A stretch of 64,000 nucleotides of DNA from a virus: positions 4,261-68,260 of IMG/VR virus record IMGVR_UViG_3300026118_000019. One strand, given 5' to 3'. The notes under the pieces were generated by a model that ran no database searches, had not been told where the DNA came from, and saw only the letters and a program-made list of their open reading frames with translations. Shown piece after piece: positions 2,922-64,000 of the stretch (position 1 is its first letter; the number at the start of each line of letters is the position of its first letter). A program made the position numbers and the translations under genes.

Positions 2922-3128
2922 GTGGACCAGCATCGGCCCCATGAGCAATTCTCGACAGATCGCGCGAGCGTGTGGCGGTCGGTCATGTTGGCGCTCGTGC
3001 TGATTGTCCTGGCGCTGTGCGTGACGTGCGTGATCAACACGAAGCGCTACGTCGAAGCCGGGTTCTGTGAGCAAGTCGACCCTGTCGATCACGTCGCGCG
3101 GTGGCTCAAGTGTCAGGAGGCCAAGTGA
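2922..3128 (+). CDS. Small single-TM membrane protein
   Basis: Hydrophobic VMLALVLIVLALCVTCVI; purine-rich RBS. Confidence 0.5.
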   Translation: MDQHRPHEQFSTDRASVWRSVMLALVLIVLALCVTCVINTKRYVEAGFCEQVDPVDHVARWLKCQEAK

Positions 3129-3917: not shown

Positions 3918-4340
3918 CTACTTTTCCGTGACGAGTCGACGCAAGGCTTGGTCGACGAGGGCCTCAACAGTCGTTTGCCTGTGGGCTGCCAATCGTTTGA
4001 GGTCAGCATGAACCATGGGGTCGCACTTCAACGATTTACGCGGCGCGGGTCCCAACGGGCGGTTGCCCAAAGATCGGCGACGAATTTTGTTCATGAGGGG
4101 GTCCAACTTATCAATCAGTTGTTGTTCCAACGCCAGGGCTTGTTGGTGTGTGTCGACGGGCAACATCAACACCCTATCCCCAACTTCCGGCTTCACGATT
4201 TCGTGATTTCGCAGACGGCGGAGCCCGTATTTCGTTCCGCCCACATACAGCGTCTGTCGTCCACGTTGCCAGATATAAGCCATTGGGCCGGTAGCTTCTG
4301 GAAAGGCGTCCGTCAATTCTGGTTCGATGGCCACAGACAT
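3918..4340 (-). CDS. GIY-YIG-like domain fused to C-terminal ribbon-helix-helix
   Basis: AYIW...LYVGGT...RRLRNH...ALEQQLI..LDPLMN, then KSLKCDPMVHADLKRLAAHRQTTVEALVDQALRRL. Confidence 0.55.
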   Translation of the reverse strand: MSVAIEPELTDAFPEATGPMAYIWQRGRQTLYVGGTKYGLRRLRNHEIVKPEVGDRVLMLPVDTHQQALALEQQLIDKLDPLMNKIRRRSLGNRPLGPAPRKSLKCDPMVHADLKRLAAHRQTTVEALVDQALRRLVTEK

Positions 4341-4365
4341 CTTGAAATGTCTACAAGTCTACACC

Positions 4366-6063
4366 ATGCCGCGTAGGGTCCCCTATCCCCAAGCCCCGGA
4401 CGATTTCAGCAAGCTGCCGCTGGCGGTGATTCAGGACGCGTTACGGGCGCGGGGGGCGGAGCCGGAGCGGCTGCCGCTGATTGACTTCATTGCGCAGTCG
4501 TGGCCGACGGTGGAGGGGAAGCGGAAGTTTCTCCCGAACTGGCATATCGAGGCGAAGGCGGAAATGTTGACGGCGGTGGCGGACGGGCAGATAGCGAAGC
4601 TGGTGATTAATGAGCCGCCGGGGTTTGCGAAGTCGCTGGTGACGTCGGTCATGTTTCCGGCGTGGCAGTGGGGGCCGAACCTGAAGCCGCACACACGGTT
4701 TCTGTGTTTGAGCTACGGGGGGGACGACGCGAGTCCGGCGGGGCGCGACGCGGAGCGCTGCCGAGATTTGATTCAGTCGCCGTTCTACCAGTCGCAGTGG
4801 GGGACGGTGGTGCAGCTGTCGGATACCCAGAATGCGAAGAGCTACTTTGCGAACAAGCAGAAGGGCTATCGGGTGTCGACGGGCATGGACGGGACGCCCA
4901 GCGGCCAGCGCGCGGACATCGTGGTGATTGACGACCCGACGAAGCTGGACGCCGAGACGCTCGCGGAAATCCTGCACGCGTCGGAGGTCTACGAGCGGAC
5001 GTTGGTCCACCGCGCGCTCGACGAGGGGTCAGCCTTCGTGCTGATTATGCAGCGGCTGCACCCGGAGGATTTGAGCGGATATTTCCTGAAGCAGGACGGG
5101 TGGGTCCACCTGAACTTCCCGCACTTCTACGAGGCGGATCGGAAGTGCCGCGTGTTCCTGGGGCCGACGCTGCTCTATGAGGACCCGCGCACGATTGAGG
5201 GGCAACCGCTGCACCCGTTGATGACGACGGCGATTGAAGCCGCGCACACGCAGCAGAAAATGCGCCCGGATATTTACGACGGGCAGCAGCAGCAACGGCC
5301 GATTGCCAAACACGGCCAGGTGGTGACGCGCATTGATCGGTATGACGCGCTGCCCAACTGGATTGACGAAATCATCATCGTGGTGGACTGCGCGTTCAAA
5401 GCGGAGGAGGACAATTCATTTGTCGTCTTCCAGAAGTGGGCGCGGCGCGAGGCCAACGCCTATCTGCTCGACCAGGTGCGCGAGCATTTGGAATTACCCG
5501 CCACGTGTGAGGCGTTGGTCGCCTTCTGCGCCGTGGAGCCTCAAGCGACGGCCAAGTATGTCGAGGCGAAGGCGAACGGCATGGGGGTCGTGCAGATGTT
5601 GCGCAACCGCGTGGCCGGACTCATGACCACCGATGACGATACCGAAGTGTTGAAGGTGTTCTGCGCGGGGAGCAAAGAGTCGAAGCTGCAAGCGGTGTCG
5701 CCCTACTTCCTCGCGGGCAACGTGAAGATTCCCAGCAAGGCGTATCTCGAAGCCAACGGCCGTTTCGATTGGACGCCGACGTATGTGCAAGAGCTGACCA
5801 CGTTTCCCAAGAGCCGGTTCAACGACCAGGTGGACGCGAGTGCGATGGCCGTATGGCGGCTGCTGCACACGTTCGAGGCACACGTGTCGCAGGCGTCGCT
5901 CATGAAAGATGACCAAGGGAACGTCGGATTGGTGGCGGGGATTTTCGGGGCCGCGTATGCCGACCCCGATATCGCAGGCGAGCGGGTGCGGGTCGGCGGA
6001 TTGGAGAGCGGTGGCGGCGGCGCGCTGATGGGCTTTTGGGATAGCGCCTACGGAAAGGGATAG
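4366..6063 (+). CDS. terL: Terminase large subunit
   Basis: LVINEPPGFAKS Walker A, DIVVIDDP Walker B, IMQRLHPEDL, YVEAKANG and DQVDA nuclease motifs; start could be 4327. Confidence 0.92.
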   Translation: MPRRVPYPQAPDDFSKLPLAVIQDALRARGAEPERLPLIDFIAQSWPTVEGKRKFLPNWHIEAKAEMLTAVADGQIAKLVINEPPGFAKSLVTSVMFPAWQWGPNLKPHTRFLCLSYGGDDASPAGRDAERCRDLIQSPFYQSQWGTVVQLSDTQNAKSYFANKQKGYRVSTGMDGTPSGQRADIVVIDDPTKLDAETLAEILHASEVYERTLVHRALDEGSAFVLIMQRLHPEDLSGYFLKQDGWVHLNFPHFYEADRKCRVFLGPTLLYEDPRTIEGQPLHPLMTTAIEAAHTQQKMRPDIYDGQQQQRPIAKHGQVVTRIDRYDALPNWIDEIIIVVDCAFKAEEDNSFVVFQKWARREANAYLLDQVREHLELPATCEALVAFCAVEPQATAKYVEAKANGMGVVQMLRNRVAGLMTTDDDTEVLKVFCAGSKESKLQAVSPYFLAGNVKIPSKAYLEANGRFDWTPTYVQELTTFPKSRFNDQVDASAMAVWRLLHTFEAHVSQASLMKDDQGNVGLVAGIFGAAYADPDIAGERVRVGGLESGGGGALMGFWDSAYGKG

Positions 6064-20600: not shown

Positions 20601-21577
20601 TGTTGGGTCCGTGCGCGAGATATGAGACAGCACTGACCGCTGTTCAAGTGTTGAGCAACTACAACGCGGGGCATGCCGTATCTGTTCCACTGGGCAATAT
20701 CAAGGAAGACGCCACTGTGTGGCAGATGATGGTCAACCAGGATATGACCCATCCGTCGTTTGGTTCACGCGCGCACGTGTTGGGCCTCTCGACAACGTCG
20801 GTGGCGCATGAGTCAGTTGCTCGAAGTGCGGGGGCCATACACTACTGGCACCTCGACGAGCCGAACATCGTGGATCGGACGATTCTCTCTCGGGAGGTGC
20901 TGGATAGTATCGGGACAGCTGACGGCGGAGTCGTCACATCCGACGACGGCAGCGCTGTCTATCACGGTGGAATCATCGTGTATGGGCAACCCGGACTCAT
21001 GAACGATGGGAGAACGTCGTATCTAATTACCGGCGGGGAAATGCTGAATGGCGCGAATGACAGTTCTGGCACCGCGCACGTGCATGTGGAGGGAGCACTC
21101 GCTGAAGTAGACGGGACGGCCTCGGTCACGTGCGAAGTCTGGATACGACCGCAAGTGCTCGCAGCTGATTCGCTGTTTTTTGCTGGGGGCCTCAGTCTCA
21201 AGATTCATAGCGGGCAAGCCAACGTGCAGTTGAATACCTCAAATGGTTTGGTCGATGTAGTTGGCGGAAGTGTGGTCATTAACCAGACCTATCAGATTGT
21301 CGCCACTTACGACGGGGTCACCGCCCGGCTCTACGTGAATGGCATCCAGGTTGGGCAACAGAATTTCATTGGCGCAATTAATTGCGCTGGGGATACGCAT
21401 GTGACTATTGGCGGAACGGAGGGCGGAGGCACGGTGTATGACGGGTGGGTCGAGAAGACTGTCATCTATCCGACGGCCTTGACGCCGCAGCAGATAGCTG
21501 CTCTCTATGCGGCCAGAATCGTAACGGCCGTGCCGGTGCCACCGGCCACGAACAACAAGGAGGAAGCAGATGTCTGA
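17666..21577 (+). CDS. Large protein with WxxxYPD repeats and two LamG/ConA-like domains
   Basis: Many W-x-[GA]-x-Y-[PA]-D repeats; WRLDE...LEAWIKP...YHLVMTYDG..LYIDG LamG-type domain twice. Confidence 0.75.
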   Translation: MATDGLFDPEIDKRGVFDPEHNRGGLFDPELIKTSSGVVLTPLTWLGTYADLIPTPRRVAWSQAFAMGQPFADVTSKTFSWKAAYPDTAPGARRPPEFPAYTSGSRLDMLTAKTLAWQAKYPDQMMVPRIPAWFKALGSFGVPFNEVTAKTLSWQAEYPDAVRLPAFPHPPSYTAPVTTPTAGFDPSISTFQWEYQDVLAARVPTQSPSIFSPVTVTQIPTWFQPLFVDLAPGPRPALPGWLTQALAPSYPIPSLPGWLANYVDTAPKARTPLESWPAFVTGSTSSSLPVAALAWAAKYPDSARAARTPVEAWPAWVTGATSSTFTVPAVSWAAKYADSARAARTPIESWPSFAALHPQPISITLDQFAWRGSYPDKFTYLRPPDLPAWATGATSSTFTVPSRSWAGVYADKIDAAPRVWVPPFTALDAFPRTEMTPLSWRGQYADWVDRLRAMPLSEARAPFAPTNPVTALSWKGIYADRAPGARPLADWQTLAFYPVPFAQPLNTFGWRGSYPDWFQYLRPAEFPAWTTGALSPALPVPRPLAWQPLYPSRVDVAKGVVAPPFLALDAFPRPGLIPLSWQGVYADKVDRLSLPMFGWTASPSSLLLPSPMLAWQGVYPERVWPKARLLDALQRFWQSSTSVVNPVPSRAWAGVYPDRIVLSRARLLDGSQKFWTYSTSSIYPVPLVSWRGFYPSGFPHPVLASIPMLFAAPYISDPGASIDSFPPTVFYGPELIRFMSQLALQPRTTLETIAFPSITSDTTTQPSFGPRLLLTLPPDAPSFEAVVTNGASSLWRLDESAGPTIRDSIDTRPGVVAGNVIFNQPGLIGPLSRAISLDGLDTSGPPRILVSNGTIGGLSALSLEAWIKPSTVSPSDYPNTNKLIIGYWSDSFLKIQVNSATTRFFVARIATTGGVFVAVSGSPQANTIYHLVMTYDGQNLVLYIDGVETARTPATGLLIATGGQSFSLGGIPTFGFAGLLGPCARYETALTAVQVLSNYNAGHAVSVPLGNIKEDATVWQMMVNQDMTHPSFGSRAHVLGLSTTSVAHESVARSAGAIHYWHLDEPNIVDRTILSREVLDSIGTADGGVVTSDDGSAVYHGGIIVYGQPGLMNDGRTSYLITGGEMLNGANDSSGTAHVHVEGALAEVDGTASVTCEVWIRPQVLAADSLFFAGGLSLKIHSGQANVQLNTSNGLVDVVGGSVVINQTYQIVATYDGVTARLYVNGIQVGQQNFIGAINCAGDTHVTIGGTEGGGTVYDGWVEKTVIYPTALTPQQIAALYAARIVTAVPVPPATNNKEEADV

Positions 21578-22558: not shown

Positions 22559-23277
22559 TGGACCCGACGACCACGACCGAACCGACTCGCCAACGCAAGA
22601 TTGCCTTGATTGGCTATGCGCCCAACGTCCGCTTCGCCCCCTGGGGCGACACGAGCTACGAAATCTGGGGCTTGAACGACCAGATCGTGACCATGCCCCG
22701 GATTGACGTGCTGTTTGAGATTCACAGCCCGGAAGTAATCAAGGCCGAGGGGCACTGGGACCGGCTGAAGACCCTAACGATTCCGGTCTTTATGCAGCAG
22801 CATTACGATGAAATCCCGACCAGCGTCGCTTATCCGCTGGACCTTGTGCAAAAACGCTATACAATTCAAGGGTGTGATCGTGCGTTCCTGACCTGCTCCG
22901 CGAGCCTGATGTTAGCCGTGGCCCTGGAGTCAACCCCGGTGCCGAGCCGGATTGACGTGTTCGGCATTGACATGGCCCAGGACAGCGAGTTCAGCCACCA
23001 ACGACCGAGCTGCGAATTTTTCCTGGGCGTGGCTCACGGGAAAGGGATTCAGCTGTCGTTGCAGAACAGTAGCGACCTGCTCAAGGCCCCCTTCATCTAC
23101 GGCTTCGAAGACGAAAAGGCCAGCGTGTTCAAGGCGCAGGTCGTCGAGCGGCGCAAGTGGCTCACCGACATGATGAACAACGCGATTCAAAAAGAATCGC
23201 AAGCGAAAGAAGAACGGCTGCAATATCTCGGAGCCGTCTCAGATATCGAACACGTCCTTAAACGCTGGACCGCCTAG
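22558..23277 (+). CDS. Rossmann-like putative glycosyltransferase (paralog 3)
   Basis: KIALIGYAP..APWGD..YEIWGLN...LFEIH...SASLMLAVAL...VFGIDM...HQRPSCEFFLG. Confidence 0.5.
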   Translation: MDPTTTTEPTRQRKIALIGYAPNVRFAPWGDTSYEIWGLNDQIVTMPRIDVLFEIHSPEVIKAEGHWDRLKTLTIPVFMQQHYDEIPTSVAYPLDLVQKRYTIQGCDRAFLTCSASLMLAVALESTPVPSRIDVFGIDMAQDSEFSHQRPSCEFFLGVAHGKGIQLSLQNSSDLLKAPFIYGFEDEKASVFKAQVVERRKWLTDMMNNAIQKESQAKEERLQYLGAVSDIEHVLKRWTA

Positions 23278-55793: not shown

Positions 55794-55864
55794 TATGATG
55801 CGATGCGTGGCGTCTGCTCACGGGGTGACAGCCGTGAGCAGACGCGGCGGGAGGAGTTGACCTG

Positions 55865-56014
55865 ATGTTTGAACGGACCACGAGTAAGGTGCAAGAAGAC
55901 CACTGTTTCGAATGCGGCAAGCCGTGGATGGCGATTACGTTCACCAGCTACGGGGCCGCGATCCGGCGGTGCTATCACTGCTGGCTGAAGGTCTACAAGC
56001 GACGCACGGCCTAA
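55865..56014 (+). CDS. Small Zn-ribbon protein
   Basis: GGAGGAG RBS; CFEC...CYHC; below ORF-track cutoff. Confidence 0.45.
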   Translation: MFERTTSKVQEDHCFECGKPWMAITFTSYGAAIRRCYHCWLKVYKRRTA

Positions 56015-58907: not shown

Positions 58908-59093
58908 TCAGTCGCTGTCCTTTCGCAGCGGGATATCCTTGAAATGCTCTGGGCGGTAGCCCCAGTGCCGGATCATGCGGTCCCGTTCCTTCTGGTCGTC
59001 GCACTTGCACGTGCCGTCAGGCCGGTAGTGCGTTGCCGCGAAGATGGTGAACGGGCAGTTTTTTATGTTGCTAAACAGCGCCAGACGCGGCAT
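58908..59093 (-). CDS. Small Cys/His protein
   Basis: AAGGAG RBS; CP...HYRPDGTCKCDD. Confidence 0.55.
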   Translation of the reverse strand: MPRLALFSNIKNCPFTIFAATHYRPDGTCKCDDQKERDRMIRHWGYRPEHFKDIPLRKDSD

Positions 59094-59107
59094 TTTTTCG
59101 CTCCTTT

Positions 59108-59314
59108 CTACTTGTGTCGAACACTCACGGTGTTGGTGTCGTCGGCGATACCGGGCGTGCCGTATTTGCCGCCCATGTTCAGGACCCAGCCTCCGGCGCT
59201 GCATGGCATCACGGCCCGGCCGGAATGCTGCTTCCCGAAGCGGTCCACAATCGTGACGCGGTCGCCCGCGCGCACGGTGTCGATCAATGTTTTGGCTGGG
59301 AACGGCTTCATCAT
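59108..59314 (-). CDS. Small SH3-like hypothetical protein
   Basis: GDRVTIVDRFG...GRAVM...WVLNMGG..GTPG. Confidence 0.55.
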   Translation of the reverse strand: MMKPFPAKTLIDTVRAGDRVTIVDRFGKQHSGRAVMPCSAGGWVLNMGGKYGTPGIADDTNTVSVRHK

Positions 59315-59523
59315 TAGCGGCCCCCTTCCTGGTAATACGCGTTCTGCTCGTCGCGCGTCAGTTCGTAGATAAACTCGCACTCGTTGCACGCGGCCACCAC
59401 GGTGTCGACCATTTTGGTCGGCAGCGGCAGGTCCGCGTTGTGATAGCCAGGGTGATACGGCCGTTCGGTCAGTGCCGACGTGACGGTCATCGTCCCTTGG
59501 CATTCCGGGCAAGTCAGGTTCAT
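59314..59523 (-). CDS. Zn-ribbon protein
   Basis: CPEC...CNEC; GGAGG RBS. Confidence 0.6.
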   Translation of the reverse strand: MNLTCPECQGTMTVTSALTERPYHPGYHNADLPLPTKMVDTVVAACNECEFIYELTRDEQNAYYQEGGR

Positions 59524-59582
59524 TTGGTGCCTCCCGTGTTGCGCTTGCGCGCTGTTCGAGTCTGTGTCTGAAGTGCGAAGAC

Positions 59583-59611
59583 AGTGTAGCCGAAACTATT
59601 AGTTATTGCAA
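59583..59611 (-). promoter_or_regulatory. Sigma70-like promoter with palindrome in spacer
   Basis: TTGCAA-17-TACACT; spacer contains AACTAATAGTT. Confidence 0.65.
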
Positions 59612-59632
59612 CCGCTAGTTTCGGCTCACCGC

Positions 59633-59926
59633 TTATTTCATCAAGTCCTTGAGCGCCGTGGGCTTGAAGTGCATGTCGCGTTCAACGCCCAGGCCGAAGC
59701 GACCCTTGAGCGCTTGCAGTTCCCCCAGGCTGAAGTAGCCCAGTTCCTTCTCGTGGCCGTCGACCAGGCCGAAGAAGGTGTCGACCCCGTCAAACTCGGT
59801 CGCATACCAGGTCCAGCTGCCGGTCGGGTCGAAAAACTTCACGACGGCGACCGCGTCCATGCCCTTCCCGTCCTGGCTGTAGAGCGCAGGCAGGGCCTTG
59901 CGGTTTTCTTTGGTCAAGAGCATCAT
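59633..59926 (-). CDS. DUF2958-like protein
   Basis: VKFF.P..SWTWYATE.D...FFGLV...ELGYFSL.EL...VERD.HF. Confidence 0.8.
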   Translation of the reverse strand: MMLLTKENRKALPALYSQDGKGMDAVAVVKFFDPTGSWTWYATEFDGVDTFFGLVDGHEKELGYFSLGELQALKGRFGLGVERDMHFKPTALKDLMK

Positions 59927-60054
59927 GTGTGTGCCTCCAGGTTGCGCTCGCGCGCGGTTTGGGTTTCGAAGGTGGTCCGTTTACGTGGCCACCCGCGCCC
60001 ACGACCTTGGTCACTGGCGGCTTCCAACCGCTGTGCCTCGGTAACGACAGGGAC

Positions 60055-60083
60055 ATTGTCTCATAATTAATAATTCACGTCAA
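60055..60083 (-). promoter_or_regulatory. Sigma70-like promoter with palindrome in spacer
   Basis: TTGACG-17-GACAAT; spacer contains AATTATTAATT. Confidence 0.65.
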
Positions 60084-60097
60084 TCAGAAAATAGGGC

Positions 60098-60125
60098 TTG
60101 AAATCCTCGGAAAAAGGCGTATAGT
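60098..60125 (+). promoter_or_regulatory. Divergent sigma70-like promoter
   Basis: TTGAAA-16-TATAGT. Confidence 0.55.
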
Positions 60126-60177
60126 GGGGGCAGTTCGACGACAACCCAACGGCCTGGAAGGGCCACAGGAGGCGAGC

Positions 60178-60402
60178 ATGTATATCCTTTACGACGGCTC
60201 ACAAGACGGCACGAAGGCGCTGCGCGAGAAGGCCGAACAGGACGACCTGCGTTATCAGCAGGACGAACGCTCGACCGGTCGCTGCCGCTACTGCGGCAAT
60301 CCTCGCCCACCGGGTTACTCGGTCACCTGCGCGGGCTCGCACTGCCAGGAGGCGGCTTACAACGACCGCGAGATTCGCACACCGCGACGACGGAGGCGTT
60401 GA
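60178..60402 (+). CDS. Small Zn-finger protein
   Basis: AGGAGG RBS; CRYC...C...C. Confidence 0.55.
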   Translation: MYILYDGSQDGTKALREKAEQDDLRYQQDERSTGRCRYCGNPRPPGYSVTCAGSHCQEAAYNDREIRTPRRRRR

Positions 60403-60427
60403 CAACTAATAATTCGAGGTGTATAGT
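60399..60427 (+). promoter_or_regulatory. Near-consensus sigma70 promoter with palindrome
   Basis: TTGACA-17-TATAGT; AACTAATAATT at 60404. Confidence 0.75.
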
Positions 60428-60540
60428 GGTGGCAGGTGGACGGCGTTCGGAGGGCAGACCTCCTGGACGGTTGACCAGGGCGGACCCCGACACGAGCCAC
60501 CAAACCTTAACCGGTCGAAAGACCAACAGAGGAGGCAGCA

Positions 60541-61143
60541 ATGAACAAACCCAGGCGACAGAAGGACGTGACGCAGCTCGGGCTCTACGTGACGGAGCAG
60601 CGGGACGGGGACTACTACCACGTCCGGGCGAGCGTGGTCACGATTGGCTACGACGCTTACGAGCGGCGGCAGGTGGACCAGGGTGAGACCTTCAGCGGCG
60701 TGCGCTACGACTCCGTGCGGAACACGCGCGGTGTCGTCAACGGTCTCTGGCTCAAAGACCTGGTGGTGACCAGCCAGGGCGAGCGCAAGGGGAATCCTCG
60801 ACACCTTTACGGGTGGGAGGTGCGGTATCAGAACGTCTTCTCGGTCGATGCGCGCGAGGCCCAGCTGATGGCCCACACGCTGAAGACCATTGAGCGCCGC
60901 ATGGCGAAACTCGACGAGAAATACGGGCGCGCGGCGACGTTCGGGGCCTACCTCGCGCGAGTGGCCCAGGCAATCGGGGCCGAGAAGTTCGTGCACCAAC
61001 AGGGCGCGTCGGGCGGCTGGAGCTACTCGGACAGCGAACAGCGGAAGTTGTCGGTGGCCGACGGGATCAACTACGTCGACTGGCAGGTTCAGAAGTGGGT
61101 CGAGGAAACCACGCCGAAGGAAACGGCGGTGGTCCATGGCTAA
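60541..61143 (+). CDS. Hypothetical early protein
   Basis: GAGGAGG RBS; 200 aa. Confidence 0.7.
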   Translation: MNKPRRQKDVTQLGLYVTEQRDGDYYHVRASVVTIGYDAYERRQVDQGETFSGVRYDSVRNTRGVVNGLWLKDLVVTSQGERKGNPRHLYGWEVRYQNVFSVDAREAQLMAHTLKTIERRMAKLDEKYGRAATFGAYLARVAQAIGAEKFVHQQGASGGWSYSDSEQRKLSVADGINYVDWQVQKWVEETTPKETAVVHG

Positions 61144-61354
61144 CAGGCCACTCGGGAAAAATCAGGCGGCGGTGCTCAAGGTGTTGCGTGAGCGAGGGGG
61201 CTGGACCCAAAAGGGCTATGGCTCCGGGTGGTATTGGAATACCTACAGCGGCACCGCGCGCATTCTCGACAGCTTGGTGCAGCGGGGCCTCGTGGTGGTG
61301 GTCGACGGCCACTACACGGCCGTGGCTGAAGGGGAGGTGACCAATGGCACGTAA
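61136..61354 (+). CDS. Small winged-helix-like protein
   Basis: LGKNQ..VL..L...GW.W...S.T.RILDSLV.RGLV. Confidence 0.55.
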   Translation: MANRPLGKNQAAVLKVLRERGGWTQKGYGSGWYWNTYSGTARILDSLVQRGLVVVVDGHYTAVAEGEVTNGT

Positions 61355-61529
61355 GTCTGTGCAGCAAATGACGGACGCGGAGATTAACCGAGAAGTAACC
61401 GCACTCCGAAACGCGGAGCGCGCTGCTCGTAAATCTCGGAAGCCGTTCCCGTCTGAAAAGATGTTGCGGATCACGACTCTCGCGTTGGAGCAAGGCACGC
61501 GATGGGCACAAGCGCAAGGGTGGGAATAG
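61344..61529 (+). CDS. Hypothetical protein
   Basis: GGAGGT RBS. Confidence 0.5.
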   Translation: MARKSVQQMTDAEINREVTALRNAERAARKSRKPFPSEKMLRITTLALEQGTRWAQAQGWE

Positions 61530-61538
61530 GAGGGCTCG

Positions 61539-61796
61539 ATGAGGGTTGACGCTGACGACTTGGTCGACATGCTGCGGCACCAAATGGTCTACCGCGAGAC
61601 GCCCCTGGTCAAAGAGCTGATGGAGCACCTGGGCCAGGACGTCACGATGAAGGGCCAAGAGTGGATGTTTGTCGGCGTCGAAGGGGGCCGGGCCGTCTTC
61701 GAGAACGAAGACGAGCGGCTGGTGCACACGTCCTACAAGCGGGCACTCGCATTACTCGAAAAAAAGGAGGTGGAGGATGGCGACGAAGACTCTTGA
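61539..61796 (+). CDS. Hypothetical protein
   Basis: AGGAGG RBS. Confidence 0.55.
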   Translation: MRVDADDLVDMLRHQMVYRETPLVKELMEHLGQDVTMKGQEWMFVGVEGGRAVFENEDERLVHTSYKRALALLEKKEVEDGDEDS

Positions 61797-62145
61797 ATGG
61801 GACGCTGAAGCCGACACGGGCGGCACGTCCCTGCGCGGCTACTTGGACAACACGACGTGGAAGTTTGAGGAGCTGGTGGCCCGGCTCCTGACGGCCAGCG
61901 GCCAATCGATGGTCGTGAACGGCGACGACAAGGCGTCGTTCGATTTCGTGGGCCGGTTCGGCAACCAGCCGTTCACGCTCTACGACTACAAGGCCGACAT
62001 GACGGTGCATATCGGTGGTGGGCCGAAGCTGGACGTCGAGGGGCTGAAGCTGGCGCTGCGGTCGGCGCTCCTGGTGGTGGAGCCGAAGCCGTTCACGCAC
62101 GCGACGAGCTACGATGGGCACACCGACTACGGGTGGGGCGTATGA
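61777..62145 (+). CDS. Hypothetical protein
   Basis: GGAGG RBS; GTSLRGY...DK...FTLYDYK...HIGG. Confidence 0.6.
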   Translation: MATKTLEWDAEADTGGTSLRGYLDNTTWKFEELVARLLTASGQSMVVNGDDKASFDFVGRFGNQPFTLYDYKADMTVHIGGGPKLDVEGLKLALRSALLVVEPKPFTHATSYDGHTDYGWGV

Positions 62146-62411
62146 GCATGGGGAAGGCGTGCCGCGACCGGGCGCACCACGATCAGTGGGTCGTGGTGCA
62201 GCGGCACTCGAATCACTCGGCGTTCAACGGCAACCGGTGGACGTGGTCGCCCTACAGCGAAGTCAAATGTCTGACGTGCGGCCAGGTTTGGCGCACCAAT
62301 GCGCTTTATGTGGATGCGTTGCGGAATGCGACGGTAGAGGAGGTGTTGCGTGGACCAGGAGTTGGAGGAAGTGTGGGAGAAAATCGCGGAGGAGACCCTC
62401 AGCAAGGCTGA
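62142..62411 (+). CDS. Zn-binding hypothetical protein
   Basis: NHSAFNG...S.YS..KC..CG..WRT.A.YV. Confidence 0.55.
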   Translation: MSMGKACRDRAHHDQWVVVQRHSNHSAFNGNRWTWSPYSEVKCLTCGQVWRTNALYVDALRNATVEEVLRGPGVGGSVGENRGGDPQQG

Positions 62412-62523
62412 AGTCGTGGACTGTTCACTGGCGGACTTCGCCGAGGGGCTCAAGGATATCGAGTTGGCCGTTCGGCACCGCCGAGAAATGGCGGAGGATG
62501 AACTGGAAAAGAGTGGGGGGTGA
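62350..62523 (+). CDS. Small acidic protein
   Basis: GAGGAGG RBS before GTG; overlaps upstream ORF end. Confidence 0.45.
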   Translation: MDQELEEVWEKIAEETLSKAEVVDCSLADFAEGLKDIELAVRHRREMAEDELEKSGG

Positions 62524-62529
62524 CGCACC

Positions 62530-62871
62530 ATGTTTCGGATTGAACGGGTATTCCATAACAAGAACGACACGGTGCAGTTCGCGGTGCTGGTGAATGGCGA
62601 ATCGCAGCAGGTCGTGGTGACGAAGTGGACGCCGGAGGTGCATCCCGAGACCGACGTGTTCGACGACAAGATTGAGCGCGTGTTGACGTTGACGTATGCG
62701 GACCATACCGAGCGCGAAGCCACGACGGCGAACGCGGCCTCGGTTGCGCGTCGCCTGGCCCAGGACCCGACGCTGGACCCCGACGCGCTGTTGCAGGAAA
62801 CGGTGGTCGACCCGGTGCGCGCGAAGGCGGAAGCCAAGCAGGACCAGGCGATCAAACGGTGGTCGCGCTGA
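62530..62871 (+). CDS. Hypothetical protein
   Basis: 113-aa ORF in operon. Confidence 0.55.
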   Translation: MFRIERVFHNKNDTVQFAVLVNGESQQVVVTKWTPEVHPETDVFDDKIERVLTLTYADHTEREATTANAASVARRLAQDPTLDPDALLQETVVDPVRAKAEAKQDQAIKRWSR

Positions 62872-62881
62872 AAATGAGAAG

Positions 62882-62910
62882 TTGACTTATTATTAATTCC
62901 ATGATACCAT
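62882..62910 (+). promoter_or_regulatory. Sigma70-like promoter with palindrome in spacer
   Basis: TTGACT-17-TACCAT with TGn extension; TATTATTAATT in spacer. Confidence 0.65.
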
Positions 62911-62960
62911 CTATGTGTCTCTGGAAGTTCAACCGCCCGCGAGGGCCACAGGAGATGCAC

Positions 62961-63239
62961 ATGAAGATGAAGAAAGCGAGACGCGGCACGAGCAAGGTGG
63001 AGGTGACGGGCAAGGGAGTCGACGACTTCGCCGAACTGGGCGCACTGAAGCGCGAAGCGGAAGCGGCGAGCCAGGCGCGCGGCCACCGGATCACGACCTG
63101 GCACCAGCGCGGGTCGCACGACCCCTACGGACGGGAAGCGTTCTGCGACAAGTGCCACGCGGCGGTGGTGGTGAGCACCGAGCCGGACATGGGGCGCGGT
63201 CGGATTTACGGCTGGACCCTGAAGCGCGATTGCAACTGA
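62961..63239 (+). CDS. Hypothetical protein (His/Cys)
   Basis: AGGAG RBS; RGH...C.KC...C. Confidence 0.55.
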   Translation: MKMKKARRGTSKVEVTGKGVDDFAELGALKREAEAASQARGHRITTWHQRGSHDPYGREAFCDKCHAAVVVSTEPDMGRGRIYGWTLKRDCN

Positions 63240-63275
63240 CAGCTAACAGCCCGCGAGGGCAACACGGAGGAATCC

Positions 63276-63557
63276 ATGGCATTCAACAAGGCCCCGTTCT
63301 CAACAATCGTCACGAAGTATCCCGGCACCTGCAAGCGCTGCGGCGGCAAAGTGCCGGTGGGCACGAAGGTGCGGTTCGGGAAGGGGAAGGTCTACCACTT
63401 CGCCGACGAGTGCGGCCCGGTGGCGCGCGTCGCCCAGCACGACCCGGCGGTGGCCCTGGCCACCCTGGCGGAGCGCGAGCACCACGACCACGGGCGCAGC
63501 CTGCTCGACATTGCGTCGGAGCTGGAGCGCTACGCGGCCGAGACAGGAGGCTACTAG
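63276..63557 (+). CDS. Small Zn-binding protein
   Basis: GGAGG RBS; KYPGTCKRCG...YH...C. Confidence 0.6.
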   Translation: MAFNKAPFSTIVTKYPGTCKRCGGKVPVGTKVRFGKGKVYHFADECGPVARVAQHDPAVALATLAEREHHDHGRSLLDIASELERYAAETGGY

Positions 63558-63729
63558 GGTTTGAGCCAGCAGGTGACACATGCAACAAGTGACGGTTGGG
63601 AGACTCCTGGTGCTGGCTCATGAGTCGTAGTCCGGGAGTCTCCGATCTCAAGTCGAGGCGCTGTCATGTGGTCACTCACGATGGGCATGGAGATGACAGC
63701 AGGTCGGGTGAGGGTGGGGTTGTCCGACC

Positions 63730-63936
63730 ATGAGTTGTATCACGGTTGAATTGTTATGTGACTGGTGCGGCCGAGAATGGGTCGGCACCTATCACTGCTG
63801 TGAGCCGCAAGGCCACGGCCGATTGTGTGCCGGGTGCCAGGCGGCGCTCGACGCGAAGAGCAGCCCGGTCGACGGGCCGGGAAAGGGAGACCGAGCCGGA
63901 GGGGGAGGGCGTGAGCCCGTTGAACCTAGCCGGTGA
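63730..63936 (+). CDS. Possible Zn-finger protein
   Basis: CDWC...LCAGC. Confidence 0.3.
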   Translation: MSCITVELLCDWCGREWVGTYHCCEPQGHGRLCAGCQAALDAKSSPVDGPGKGDRAGGGGREPVEPSR

Positions 63937-64000
63937 TGGTTGGTGGCCAAACTCCTGACGCGGGCAAGCCGACGCCCGCCCAAGAAAGGTAAGAATCATG

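What the first reader, a model, noticed from the sequence alone, without database searches (positions are those of the whole stretch)
59521..63278. Covarying GNRA-hairpin leader in front of six early genes on both strands
Seen: AACA-GCGC[GCAA]GCGC-AACACGGGAGG (before 59523-), AACC-GCGC[GCGA]GCGC-AACCTGGAGG (59926-), AAC-GGCCT[GGAA]GGGCC-ACAGGAGG (60178+), AACC-GGTC[GAAA]GACC-AACAGAGGAGG (60541+), AACC-GCCC[GCGA]GGGC-CACAGGAG (62961+), AACA-GCCC[GCGA]GGGC-AACACGGAGG (63276+). Stems differ but always pair, loops are always GNRA, and the position just before the SD is fixed. Five of six precede the first gene after a promoter. Inference: a cis RNA element (translational enhancer/operator, boxB-like site or processing signal).
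Basis: partly seen in the sequence, partly recalled or inferred. Interest (0 to 1): 0.75.

Follow-up and report, generated by a model that had tools for sequence, protein, structure and literature searches.

The report
Shared RNA hairpin before phage early genes
Six small early-type genes of an uncultured soil phage each begin with the same tiny folded RNA signal that partly covers the ribosome-binding site, most likely a shared switch on their translation, though nothing has yet been tested at the bench.

Summary
All six sites exist at the stated start codons. Each reads AAC-N, a 4-bp stem, a GNRA loop, the stem's other half, N-AC-N, then 0-2 nt, GGAG(G), 5-7 nt and ATG.

- **Not chance:** 6 copies against 0 in 200 shuffles. 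A covariance model scores the six at 39-49 bits and the next-best site at 13.7.
- **RNA-level:** all six lie on the sense strand, and 24 of 24 stem cells pair despite compensatory changes.
- **New here:** the hairpin caps a longer stem-loop. The 3 nt before AAC pair with the 3 nt after the AC box, which are the first bases of the ribosome-binding site. This holds in 15 of 18 cells and also covaries.
- **Not a host feature:** the motif sits at chance level in 596 Gb of bacterial genomes and in viral and metagenome contigs.
- **Rfam:** no match.
- **Other phages:** three otherwise unrelated phages that share one early gene each carry their own, different repeated hairpin beside the ribosome-binding site.

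Best reading (0.45): a class-specific translational operator. Rival readings are listed.

This scan has noted shared early-gene leaders on other DNA before.

The parts
59521..59559 (-). hp1 module. Outer helix 5' strand CUC(G), AACA, stem GCGC, loop GCAA, stem GCGC, AACA, then CGG of the SD region GGGAGG, spacer, ATG at 59523-59521. Leads a 69-aa zinc-ribbon-like ORF (59314-59523).
   Evidence: (49.4 bits)
59924..59962 (-). hp2 module. CCA, AACC, GCGC[GCGA]GCGC, AACC, UGG-AGG, ATG at 59926-59924. Leads the DUF2958 gene (59633-59926).
   Evidence: DUF2958, E 2.2e-20; 44.9 bits
60145..60180 (+). hp3 module. CC, (C)AAC, inner stem of 5 bp GGCCU[GGAA]GGGCC, ACA, GGAGG, ATG at 60178. Leads a 74-aa Cys-rich ORF with an Arg-rich tail (60178-60402).
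   Evidence: (38.9 bits)
60506..60543 (+). hp4 module. CCUU, AACC, GGUC[GAAA]GACC, AACA, GAGG-AGG, ATG at 60541. Leads the 200-aa conserved ORF (60541-61143). It sits at the end of a leader of about 107 nt.
   Evidence: z -2.56; 47.1 bits
62928..62963 (+). hp5 module. UUC, AACC, GCCC[GCGA]GGGC, CACA, GGA-G, ATG at 62961. Leads a 92-aa ORF (62961-63239).
   Evidence: (44.0 bits)
63242..63278 (+). hp6 module. AACA, GCCC[GCGA]GGGC, AACA, C-GGAGG, ATG at 63276. It lies in the 36-nt gap after the stop of the previous cistron and has no promoter. The outer helix is not formed in this copy. Leads a 93-aa zinc-ribbon-like ORF (63276-63557).
   Evidence: (43.9 bits)
60098..60125 (+). Promoter-like site TTGAAA-16-TATAGT ahead of hp3. 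The module starts about 14 nt after the inferred transcript start.
   Evidence: 10 of 12. The transcript start is inferred, not measured.
60399..60427 (+). Promoter-like site TTGACA-17-TATAGT ahead of hp4.
   Evidence: 11 of 12
60055..60083 (-). Promoter-like site TTGACG-17-GACAAT ahead of hp2. The leader is about 120 nt.
   Evidence: 9 of 12
62882..62910 (+). Promoter-like site TTGACT-17-TACCAT ahead of hp5.
   Evidence: 9 of 12
59583..59611 (-). Weaker promoter-like site TTGCAA-17-TACACT ahead of hp1.
   Evidence: Seen by eye. Not reported by the scan because it scores 8 of 12.

Best explanation
The six sites are copies of one RNA element that acts in the mRNA leader at the ribosome-binding site of the phage's putative early cistrons.

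Its anatomy, from the outside in:
- a weak outer helix of 2-4 bp, whose 3' strand is the first 2-3 nt of the Shine-Dalgarno region;
- a symmetric internal loop, 5'-AAC-N on one side and 5'-N-AC-N on the other, with AAC and AC invariant;
- a 4-bp (once 5-bp) G+C-rich inner helix;
- a GNRA tetraloop.

Proposed mechanism, which is inferred and not shown: the element is a shared translational operator. On its own the outer helix is too weak to stop a 30S subunit, so the genes are translated. A factor that recognises the invariant unpaired bases and the GNRA cap on the variable helix would lock the outer helix. That would shut off (or otherwise gate) translation of the whole early set together. The factor could be a phage protein made later or a host protein.

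Shown here: sequence, strand, covariation of both helices, position relative to SD and ATG, restriction to this gene block, and absence from other genomes. Inferred: that the element is transcribed, that a factor exists, and the direction of the effect.
For: 1. RNA-level. All 6 of 6 copies are on the sense strand on both DNA strands. Loops are GNRA in 6 of 6. Inner-helix cells pair in 24 of 24, with double changes at two pairs.

2. Second helix. RNAalifold predicts columns 4-6 paired with columns 27-29. Of 18 cells, 15 pair, and all three pairs show changes on both sides (G-C, A-U, C-G, U-G at the pair next to the loop). For the whole structure 92.9% of cells pair, against 74.1% in shuffles (0 of 500 reach it) and at most 52.4% when the partner is slid by 1-3 columns. 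Runs of pairing next to the loop sum to 16, against 4.5 +/- 2.7 for random 8-mers of the genome, P about 0.0008. The local minimum-energy fold shows this architecture in 5 of 6 copies.

3. Tied to the ribosome-binding site, not to the transcript 5' end. The stem ends 4-6 nt before GGAG in all six. The distance from the inferred transcript start varies: about 11-18 nt in three copies, about 75-95 nt in two, and one copy is intercistronic.

4. Sequence-specific constraint on unpaired bases. AAC and AC are invariant in all six copies, while three of the four inner pairs have changed. That pattern fits a binding site presented on a helix.

5. Class-specific. Every ORF I called in 59.1-63.6 kb that has 36 nt or more of free leader carries the element (6 of 6). 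The tightly coupled genes there have gaps of 14 nt or less and lack it. Late-region genes with strong SDs lack it too.

6. The predicted SD is, if anything, less accessible in these six: 0.30 against 0.49, not significant.

7. The layout recurs with other sequences. Phages G003 (8 copies), G004 (2) and G005 (2, with the SD-like AGGA inside the 3' arm) each have their own repeated hairpin beside or over the SD, including in front of their homologue of the 200-aa gene.
Against: - No factor is known. Pfam named only DUF2958 among the 19 ORFs of the 55.4-64 kb region that I scanned.
- No RNA-binding family turned up, and no CsrA family match in four records.
- There is no expression data; no RNA run is listed.
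- There are only six copies and four distinct stems, all within one genome, so the covariation rests on few independent events. Shuffle controls ignore relatedness.
- The outer helix is short and is absent in hp6. Swapping upstream and downstream strands between copies gives duplex energies no worse than the native pairs, -2.6 against -1.9 kcal/mol. Part of the signal could therefore be general pyrimidine-rich against purine-rich complementarity.
- In longer contexts the outer helix competes with other pairings, and the leaders are not more stable than shuffles.
- A GNRA-capped mini-hairpin with A+C flanks could also be explained without any factor.
- Only 56% of the genome is in the record.
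Confidence: 0.45

Rival explanations
1. An autonomous cis element with no dedicated factor. A minimal, very stable hairpin with unstructured A+C flanks insulates the ribosome-binding site from variable upstream RNA. It serves as a standby or landing platform for the 30S subunit, and/or slows 5'-to-3' or 5'-end-dependent decay.
For: - GNRA loops are the usual way to make a 4-bp stem stable (established knowledge, recalled).
- The inner hairpin is in the minimum-energy fold in all 6 short contexts and all 5 longer contexts folded.
- In phage G003 the analogous hairpin starts 9-10 nt after the -10 box in 5 of 8 copies, that is at about +3 of the mRNA. This is the classic place for a protective 5' stem-loop.
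- Phage L314 has an A+C-rich CAACC x3 leader without a hairpin before the same gene.
Against: - In this phage the element is anchored to the SD, not the 5' end (11-18, about 75-95 nt, or internal).
- Predicted SD accessibility is not raised: 0.30 against 0.49.
- Invariance of AAC and AC, rather than any A/C mix, while the stems drift suggests sequence-specific reading.
- Strongly expressed late genes do not use it.
Confidence: 0.3
2. A recognition or cleavage signal for a structure-specific endoribonuclease, from phage or host, that cuts polycistronic early RNA next to each ribosome-binding site. The cut would either mature or inactivate early messages.
For: - hp6 lies between two cistrons.
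- Conserved single-stranded AAC/ACA next to a small hairpin is a plausible nuclease site.
- Early-class restriction fits an early shut-off nuclease. The precedent recalled is T4 RegB, which cuts in early SDs.
Against: - No nuclease family was found in the ORFs scanned.
- No RNA ends are available.
- The stems are far too short for RNase III.
Confidence: 0.1
3. An antitermination site of the nut/boxB kind. A small Arg-rich phage protein binds the GNRA hairpin on the nascent RNA and modifies RNA polymerase.
For: - GNRA-type hairpins just downstream of divergent early promoters on both strands.
- Several small basic ORFs lie nearby, for example the 74-aa ORF with an RRRRR tail and the 61-aa ORF at 61344.
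Against: - The loops are true tetraloops on 4-bp stems.
- There is no conserved box in the 50 nt upstream: mean column identity 44%, one invariant column.
- There are six sites, two of them 300 nt apart in one operon and one without a promoter.
- The spacing is fixed to the SD rather than to the promoter.
- Terminator-like sites number 7 against 7.3 in shuffles.
- No N-family hit in Pfam.
Confidence: 0.07
4. A DNA-level element: homology patches for cassette shuffling (PeSL-like) or a protein operator on double-stranded DNA.
For: - The same 200-aa gene sits behind four different phage-specific leaders in otherwise unrelated phages.
- G003's promoter-hairpin-SD cassettes are nearly identical over about 60 bp.
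- The pairs hp1/hp2 and hp5/hp6 differ at only 2 positions over about 20 nt.
Against: - In this phage the shared block is only about 20 nt with differing stems, too short and too varied for efficient homologous exchange.
- Stem complementarity and GNRA loops on the sense strand in 6 of 6 are not needed for a duplex-DNA site.
- The conserved flanks are direct repeats, not inverted ones.
Confidence: 0.05

Closest known systems
Start-Associated Sequences (SAS) and extended SAS of Cluster K mycobacteriophages (PMC3203893; passages read)
   Same: - A phage-specific short motif repeated 11-19 times, in one orientation.
- It sits only in the non-structural half, a few nt before start codons.
- It is absent from host genomes, and its function is unknown but thought to concern translation initiation.
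- About half of the sites also have an inverted repeat just upstream.
   Different: - SAS is a fixed 13-nt sequence that contains the SD itself. Its consensus is not enriched here: 1 match with 2 mismatches against 1.27 expected.
- The authors state that departures in the ESAS repeats do not support RNA pairing, and they favour DNA-binding proteins.
- Here the stems covary and the loops are GNRA.
PeSL cassettes (promoter-early stem-loop) of T4-type phages (PMC2839356, passages; PMC4122927, abstract and outline)
   Same: Repeated small regulatory cassettes in front of ORFan early genes. Each has a sigma-70-type promoter, a stem-loop, an SD and a start codon. The cassettes belong to the phage and not to the gene.
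   Different: - In PeSLs the stem-loop lies between or over the -35 and -10 boxes and works as a terminator or attenuator for upstream transcription.
- PeSLs act as DNA homology for recombination.
- Here the hairpin is downstream of the promoter, in the leader and next to the SD. It is only 4 bp long and has no U tract.
- One copy here has no promoter.
nut boxB hairpins bound by N-type antiterminators of lambdoid phages (recalled knowledge, no call)
   Same: Small G+C stem capped by a GNRA-type fold, placed after divergent early promoters on both strands.
   Different: Loop size, the lack of a boxA-like partner, the copy number, the intercistronic copy and the fixed distance to the SD. See the membership test.
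Phage translational operators, such as hairpins at or beside the ribosome-binding site bound by a phage protein: T4 gp43 and RegA targets, RNA-phage coat-protein operators (recalled knowledge, no call)
   Same: A small hairpin with conserved unpaired bases that overlaps or abuts the ribosome-binding site. This is the mechanism I propose.
   Different: Those operators mostly control one gene or are poorly conserved in sequence. Here one well-defined module heads six cistrons, and no binding protein is known.
CsrA/Rsm binding hairpins with GGA in the loop plus GGA in the SD (recalled knowledge, no call)
   Same: A hairpin just 5' of an SD. The hairpin of phage G003 has loop A-N-GGA followed by AAGGAG, which fits this motif.
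   Different: In the window's phage only hp3 has GGA in or near the loop. No CsrA gene is present in four phage records. The host is unknown.

Membership tests
lambdoid nut site (boxA + boxB / N) | Hairpin whose loop adopts a GNRA-type fold on a short G+C stem | tested here: met
   Six of six loops are GNRA on 4-5 bp stems. They are true tetraloops, not the pentaloops of known boxB (the latter is recalled).
lambdoid nut site (boxA + boxB / N) | Conserved boxA-like sequence a few nt upstream of the hairpin | tested here: not met
   The alignment of the 50 nt upstream of the six sites has mean column identity 44% and one invariant column. Only AAC directly at the stem is conserved.
lambdoid nut site (boxA + boxB / N) | One site per early operon, between promoter and terminators that must be read through | tested here: not met
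   There are six sites. hp5 and hp6 are 300 nt apart in one operon, and hp6 has no promoter. Terminator-like sites number 7 against 7.3 in shuffles.
lambdoid nut site (boxA + boxB / N) | N-type Arg-rich antiterminator encoded nearby | tested here: inconclusive
   No Pfam family hit of that kind in the ORFs scanned. Small basic ORFs exist, but such proteins are short and poorly conserved.
PeSL cassettes | Sigma-70-type early promoter inside the repeat | tested here: inconclusive
   Four of six have a promoter-like site by the scan, one by eye only, and one has none.
PeSL cassettes | Stem-loop placed between or over the -35/-10 boxes and able to terminate upstream transcription (PMC2839356) | tested here: not met
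   The hairpins lie 18 nt or more downstream of the -10 box and next to the SD. They have 4-bp stems and no T run.
PeSL cassettes | Recombination breakpoints at the repeats between related phages | not testable with these tools
   No close relative of this phage was found. Contigs laid from four runs were identical where they covered the region.
SAS/ESAS of Cluster K mycobacteriophages | 13-nt consensus containing the SD, 3-7 nt before the start codon | tested here: not met
   The consensus from the paper gives 1 match with 2 mismatches in the window against 1.27 expected, and the match is not at a leader.
SAS/ESAS of Cluster K mycobacteriophages | One orientation, non-structural genes only, absent from host genomes | tested here: met
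   Six of six are on the sense strand, all within 59.5-63.3 kb. Pairing is at chance level in 83 genome hits over 596 Gb, and no genome has more than one hit.
CsrA/Rsm target | GGA in the hairpin loop | tested here: not met
   The loops are GCAA, GCGA x3, GAAA and GGAA. Only hp3 has GGA.
5'-terminal stabiliser hairpin | Stem-loop within a few nt of the transcript 5' end | tested here: not met
   From the predicted -10 boxes, the modules start at about +11 to +18 (three copies) or about +75 to +95 (two), and one is internal. Transcript starts are inferred. In G003, 5 of 8 copies start at about +3.
any Rfam family | Score at or above the family's gathering threshold | tested here: not met
   There are 0 matches in the whole window at gathering thresholds. 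In E-value mode over 59400-64000 the only row is an irrelevant miRNA model at E = 1.

The most novel reading that the evidence does not exclude
High-G+C soil phages run a private post-transcriptional control layer on their early genes. Each phage would have its own small hairpin at the ribosome-binding site of every free-standing early cistron: a GNRA cap with an AAC/AC internal loop here, an A-N-GGA pentaloop in G003, other loops in G004 and G005. Each would also have a matching phage-encoded RNA-binding protein that has co-evolved with the hairpin. That protein would switch the whole early set off (or on) at once. The specificity pair would work like an RNA-level immunity determinant, and genes would move between phages by being plugged behind the resident leader.
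Probability: 0.2. Interest if true: 0.75.

Novelty: new variant of a known kind. Interest (0 to 1): 0.55.

Why it matters
Shared motifs in front of phage early genes have been described before (SAS, PeSL), but their mode of action is mostly unknown or assigned to DNA. This case is small and clean enough to test. It is a 29-nt module with two covarying helices, invariant unpaired bases and a direct overlap with the ribosome-binding site, and it heads six genes.

If a binding factor exists, it would be a new regulator-operator pair for coordinate translational control of a temporal gene class. It would also be a compact, orthogonal translational switch for high-G+C hosts.

If no factor exists, the module is a natural, minimal ribosome-binding-site insulator.

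Either way, the finding that unrelated phages carrying the same gene each put their own hairpin before it says that the leader belongs to the phage's regulatory system and not to the gene.

Tried and rejected
- **Rfam:** nothing at gathering thresholds or in E-value mode.
- **Nucleotide relatives:** blastn of 59300-63600 against 50,697 phage records found no match.
- **Exact stem variant** AACMGCCCGCGAGGGCMACA in viral contigs: 0.
- **First own-genome pattern**: it had fixed spacing and missed the sites. It was poorly designed and I discarded it.
- **Terminase as bait:** no tblastn relative in viral contigs. The best phage-database hits are 30-34% identical from many hosts, so they give no host clue.
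- **Model R1** on L307-L309 and on G001/G002: only the single L010 site.
- **The G003-type pattern** in viral contigs: only G003 itself.
I therefore could not read the 121,804-bp contig that carries the identical 200-aa protein, nor the contigs of P0002-P0004.
- **Expression:** no RNA holder is listed among 14 runs. Contigs of four DNA runs laid on 59000-64000 were identical where they covered the region, with no variant in any hairpin, so there is no natural covariation data.
- **Anti-leader RNA** (a lead from earlier scan notes): the complement of the 3' flank plus SD occurs only at hp1 and hp4 themselves, 2 matches against 2.46 expected. The 172-nt gap after 63557 is not unusually stable, z -0.64.
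- **CsrA gene:** 0 of 4 phage records.
- **'Hairpin exposes the SD':** not supported.
- **Mix-and-match of outer-helix strands:** native pairs are not better than swapped ones.
- **Whole-leader stability:** z-scores run from -0.14 to -0.8, except hp4 at -2.56.
- **The 200-aa protein:** the model has mean pLDDT 82.7. Foldseek against the PDB gave no hit at E <= 0.001. VIA-align wide gave a best Z of 4.7. I tell this absence here only. It has no Pfam or PHROG family.
- **Caldilineaceae:** the cluster of hits in the genome scan is one conserved orthologous locus whose stem mostly does not pair, so it is not this motif.
- **Supplements:** supplementary files of the papers were not opened. The SAS and PeSL site lists in them could refine the comparison.

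Full report
**What the DNA is.** The window is bases 4261-68260 of a 68,260-bp uncultured virus record with no end repeats, estimated 56% complete. It has about 61% G+C. A large terminase gene lies at 4327-6063 (phrog_38, E 3.7e-73), followed by a long plus-strand block of large genes. A block of small ORFs lies at 56.2-64 kb, arranged divergently around 59.9-60.2 kb.

Eight tRNA genes lie just upstream of the window. The identical 200-aa protein of 60541-61143 is on record on five contigs, the longest 121,804 bp. The record is therefore about half a genome.

The same DNA occurs in rhizosphere and soil metagenome runs of two campaigns. The host is unknown: the best terminase matches in the phage database are 30-34% identical and come from many hosts.

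**The observation.** All six motifs are present as written. The consensus is AAC-N, a 4-bp stem beginning G-C, a GNRA loop, the 3' stem, N-AC-N, 0-2 nt, GGAG(G), 5-7 nt, ATG. hp3 differs in that the two N positions pair, giving a 5-bp stem.

- All 24 of 24 stem cells pair. Two pairs show changes on both sides. The covariation score is 0.617 against 0.187 in shuffles, reached by 0 of 500.
- There are only four distinct stems, because hp1/hp2 and hp5/hp6 are near-duplicates.
- The record holds 113 GNRA hairpins of this size, which is not unusual (96 +/- 9 in shuffles). Seven are followed by an SD and a start codon (0.5 expected, maximum 3). Six have both flanks (0 in 200 shuffles).
- A covariance model built from the six scores them at 38.9-49.4 bits over the whole record with filters off. 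The next hit scores 13.7 bits.

**Promoters.** The consensus scan finds 8 promoter-like sites in 55-64 kb against 1.6 in shuffles. Four of them lie ahead of hp2, hp3, hp4 and hp5. The site ahead of hp1 is weaker and seen by eye only. hp6 has none.

The element is therefore not fixed to the transcript start. Inferred distances are about 11-18 nt (hp1, hp3, hp5), about 75-95 nt (hp2, hp4), or internal (hp6). It is fixed to the ribosome-binding site, with the stem ending 4-6 nt before GGAG and 14-17 nt before ATG.

In 59.1-63.6 kb, every ORF I called that has 36 nt or more of free leader carries it (6 of 6). The other genes there are coupled to their upstream neighbour, with gaps of 14 nt or less. 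Genes after the promoters near 55.3 kb, the ORF at 63730, and late genes with strong SDs do not carry it.

**A second helix.** RNAalifold on the six sequences adds a 3-bp outer helix. The 3 nt before AAC pair with the 3 nt after the AC box.

- Of 18 cells, 15 pair. The pair next to the loop is G-C, A-U, C-G, U-G, C-G and, in hp6, unpaired.
- The whole two-helix structure has 92.9% of cells paired. Shuffles give 74.1% (0 of 500 reach it), and sliding the partner by 1-3 columns gives at most 52.4%.
- Counting uninterrupted pairs outward from the loop gives 4, 3, 2, 4, 3 and 0, a sum of 16. Random 8-mers of the genome give 4.5 +/- 2.7, P about 0.0008.
- The local minimum-energy fold has this architecture in 5 of 6 copies.

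The 3' strand of this helix is the start of the SD region (CGG, UGG, GGA, GAG, GGA). The two helices enclose a symmetric internal loop in which AAC on one side and AC on the other are invariant. Read antiparallel, the central positions are always A opposite C and C opposite A.

Caveats on the outer helix:
- Swapped upstream and downstream strands pair as well as native ones.
- The helix competes with other pairings in longer transcripts.
- hp6 lacks it.
- The predicted unpaired probability of GGAG is 0.30 in the six against 0.49 in 28 other ATG genes with GGAG, p = 0.16. This gives no support for an SD-exposing enhancer and only weak support for partial occlusion.

**Is it a host or general feature?** A strict pattern for the motif matches hp1, hp2, hp4 and hp6 in the window, 4 matches against 0 in 100 shuffles. 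Stem positions in the pattern were left free to pair or not.

| Collection | Stretches matched | Stems that pair |
|---|---|---|
| Viral contigs, strict pattern | 1 | 1 |
| One genome per 185,579 species (596 Gb), strict pattern | 83 | 11 (13%) |
| Metagenome contigs, strict pattern | 99 | 15 (15%) |

My estimate for unconstrained positions, assuming uniform bases, is 14% pairing for the strict pattern and 5.3% for the looser one. No stretch in any collection held more than one match.

The motif is therefore at chance level everywhere except in this phage. A few single sites elsewhere are perfect look-alikes before start codons (L010/L114, L266, L050, L017/L064, L112, L166), but their number fits chance.

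**Other phages.** No close relative exists in the collections. Five viral records carry a homologue of the 200-aa protein at 37-54% identity. A tblastn of all ORFs of 50 aa or more against the two complete ones, G003 and G004, shows that this is essentially the only shared gene. These are therefore unrelated phages sharing one early gene.

| Record | Leader feature | Copies |
|---|---|---|
| G003 | 6-bp G+C hairpin with loop A-[U/A/C]-GGA, directly followed by AAGGAG and ATG, all on the gene strand within 6 kb. Five copies start 9-10 nt after a TTGACA-17-TAGNNT promoter-like site. | 8 exact |
| G004 | Hairpin with a 6-nt loop, followed by AA and an SD | 2 exact |
| G005 (fragment) | 5-bp hairpin with AC-N-N loop. 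Its 3' arm contains the SD-like AGGA, and each copy follows a promoter-like box. | 2 |
| L314 | No hairpin. CAACC x3 before GGAGG. | none |
| L309 | A single, unrepeated hairpin about 20 nt before the SD | 1 |

In G003, G004 and G005 one of the copies heads the 200-aa homologue. So four of six phages, counting the window's, have their own repeated hairpin next to or over the ribosome-binding site. The same gene is found behind four different leaders. Model R1 finds none of them, and the G003 motif is unique to G003.

**Interpretation.** Strand specificity on both DNA strands, GNRA loops, compensated stem changes and a fixed distance to SD and ATG make an RNA element at the ribosome-binding site very likely. 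I put this at about 0.85.

The choice is then between an element read by a factor and an autonomous structural device. I favour the first, at 0.45 including the direction of action, for four reasons:
- The unpaired AAC and AC are invariant while three of four inner pairs have changed.
- A second covarying helix holds part of the SD.
- The element marks one gene class and is not used by late genes.
- Different phages have different but internally uniform versions, as expected if each matches its own reader.

Against this, no reader is known. Pfam named only DUF2958 among the 19 ORFs of the 55.4-64 kb region that I scanned. There is no CsrA gene in four records. No complementary RNA exists in the held half of the genome. 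The shared 200-aa protein has no recognisable fold.

The autonomous reading (0.3) is helped by G003, where the hairpin sits at the very 5' end of most messages. Processing (0.1), nut-like antitermination (0.07) and DNA-level roles (0.05) are less likely, for the reasons given under the rivals.

**Comparison with known systems.** The nearest described things are the SAS/ESAS repeats of Cluster K mycobacteriophages and the PeSL cassettes of T4-type phages.

- **SAS** shares the phage-specific, one-orientation, non-structural-gene, start-codon-proximal pattern and the absence from hosts. It is a fixed sequence containing the SD, and its authors found no support for RNA pairing in the accompanying repeats (PMC3203893, passages).
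- **PeSLs** share the promoter, stem-loop and SD cassette before ORFans. Their stem-loop lies in or over the promoter and terminates upstream transcription, and they act as recombination homology (PMC2839356, passages; PMC4122927, abstract).
- **The boxB comparison** fails on upstream box, copy number and placement.
- **In print:** a full-text search for 'GNRA tetraloop' with 'Shine-Dalgarno', 'bacteriophage' and 'early genes' found no paper. A search for 'conserved stem-loop' with 'upstream of the Shine-Dalgarno', 'phage' and 'early' found nothing relevant among the 15 listed of 82.
- **Earlier notes of this scan** describe shared early-gene leaders in other phages, some with candidate anti-leader RNAs. 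I tested that idea here and found none.

**Verdict.** The feature is real, non-random, RNA-level and repeated in the leaders of six early-type genes. It is absent from Rfam and specific to this phage. Its kind, a phage-private motif at early-gene starts, is known. Its form is new: a bipartite stem-loop with a GNRA cap, an invariant A/C internal loop and partial SD pairing, with covariation in both helices. Function is inferred only.

Noticed in passing
window 59592-59602, 60066-60076, 60405-60415, 62889-62900 (approximate): The spacer of the early promoter-like sites holds an A+T-rich, near-palindromic 11-mer of the type AAYTAWTARTT. It is likely a repressor operator.
   Followed up: partly
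L307 (record G003) 2182, 3474, 4007, 5390, 5963, 6647, 7207, 8304: Eight near-identical promoter-hairpin-SD cassettes. The hairpin loop is A-N-GGA and the SD is AAGGAG, so there are two GGA motifs 11 nt apart. This fits the recalled CsrA/Rsm target layout. No CsrA gene is present in the phage.
   Followed up: partly
record G005: 21455-21473 and 22762-22780 (L315 about 1647 and 2954): Two copies of a 5-bp hairpin whose 3' arm contains the SD-like AGGA. Each follows a CTTGACT box, and one heads the 200-aa homologue. The record ends just after, so more copies may be cut off.
   Followed up: partly
L314 about 2950-3000: The homologue of the 200-aa gene in this 70% G+C phage has no hairpin. Its leader has CAACC three times before GGAGG, and other leaders there are also A+C-rich.
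   Followed up: no
window 55812-55843: A different 12-bp perfect hairpin with an 8-nt loop ends 5 nt before the SD (GGGAGGAG) of the small ORF at 55865. It could be a terminator for the gene before it, or another SD-adjacent structure.
   Followed up: no
window 63557-63730: A 172-nt gap without a convincing ORF. It contains a 12-bp perfect hairpin at about 63599-63645 with CUCC in its 3' arm. Overall stability is not above shuffles, z -0.64.
   Followed up: partly
G000:C1:3076-4225 (just upstream of the window): A cluster of eight tRNA genes: Ser x2, Leu x4, Tyr and Gln.
   Followed up: no
window 60541-61143 and proteins P0001-P0004: A 200-aa protein conserved at 37-57% identity in at least eight sequences from otherwise unrelated phages. 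It has a confident model (pLDDT 82.7) but no Pfam, PHROG or PDB fold match. The identical protein lies on a 121,804-bp contig, so the record is about half a genome.
   Followed up: partly
late region, e.g. window 10690, 23285, 34851, 41371, 42017, 54010: CTGAC/CYGAC repeats directly after stop codons ahead of late genes with strong SDs, seen in the leader listing.
   Followed up: no
L023, L024, L029, L052, L066, L068, L078, L081, L082, L085, L088, L089 (Caldilineaceae genomes): One conserved orthologous leader or gene start, TCTCAG-GTG-AACA-GGGC-GGAA-G(C/A)GC-AACCCTGGAGG-TTCT-GTG, recurs in twelve Caldilineaceae genomes. It matched my pattern by sequence, and its stem pairs in only two of them. 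It is not this motif.
   Followed up: no
L010 7914-7953 (same sequence in L114): A single perfect look-alike, AACC-GGGC[GCAA]GCCC-CACA...GGAGGAGG-ATG, in front of a probable structural gene of an unrelated viral contig. It scores 22.7 bits with R1. Its occurrence is compatible with chance.
   Followed up: partly
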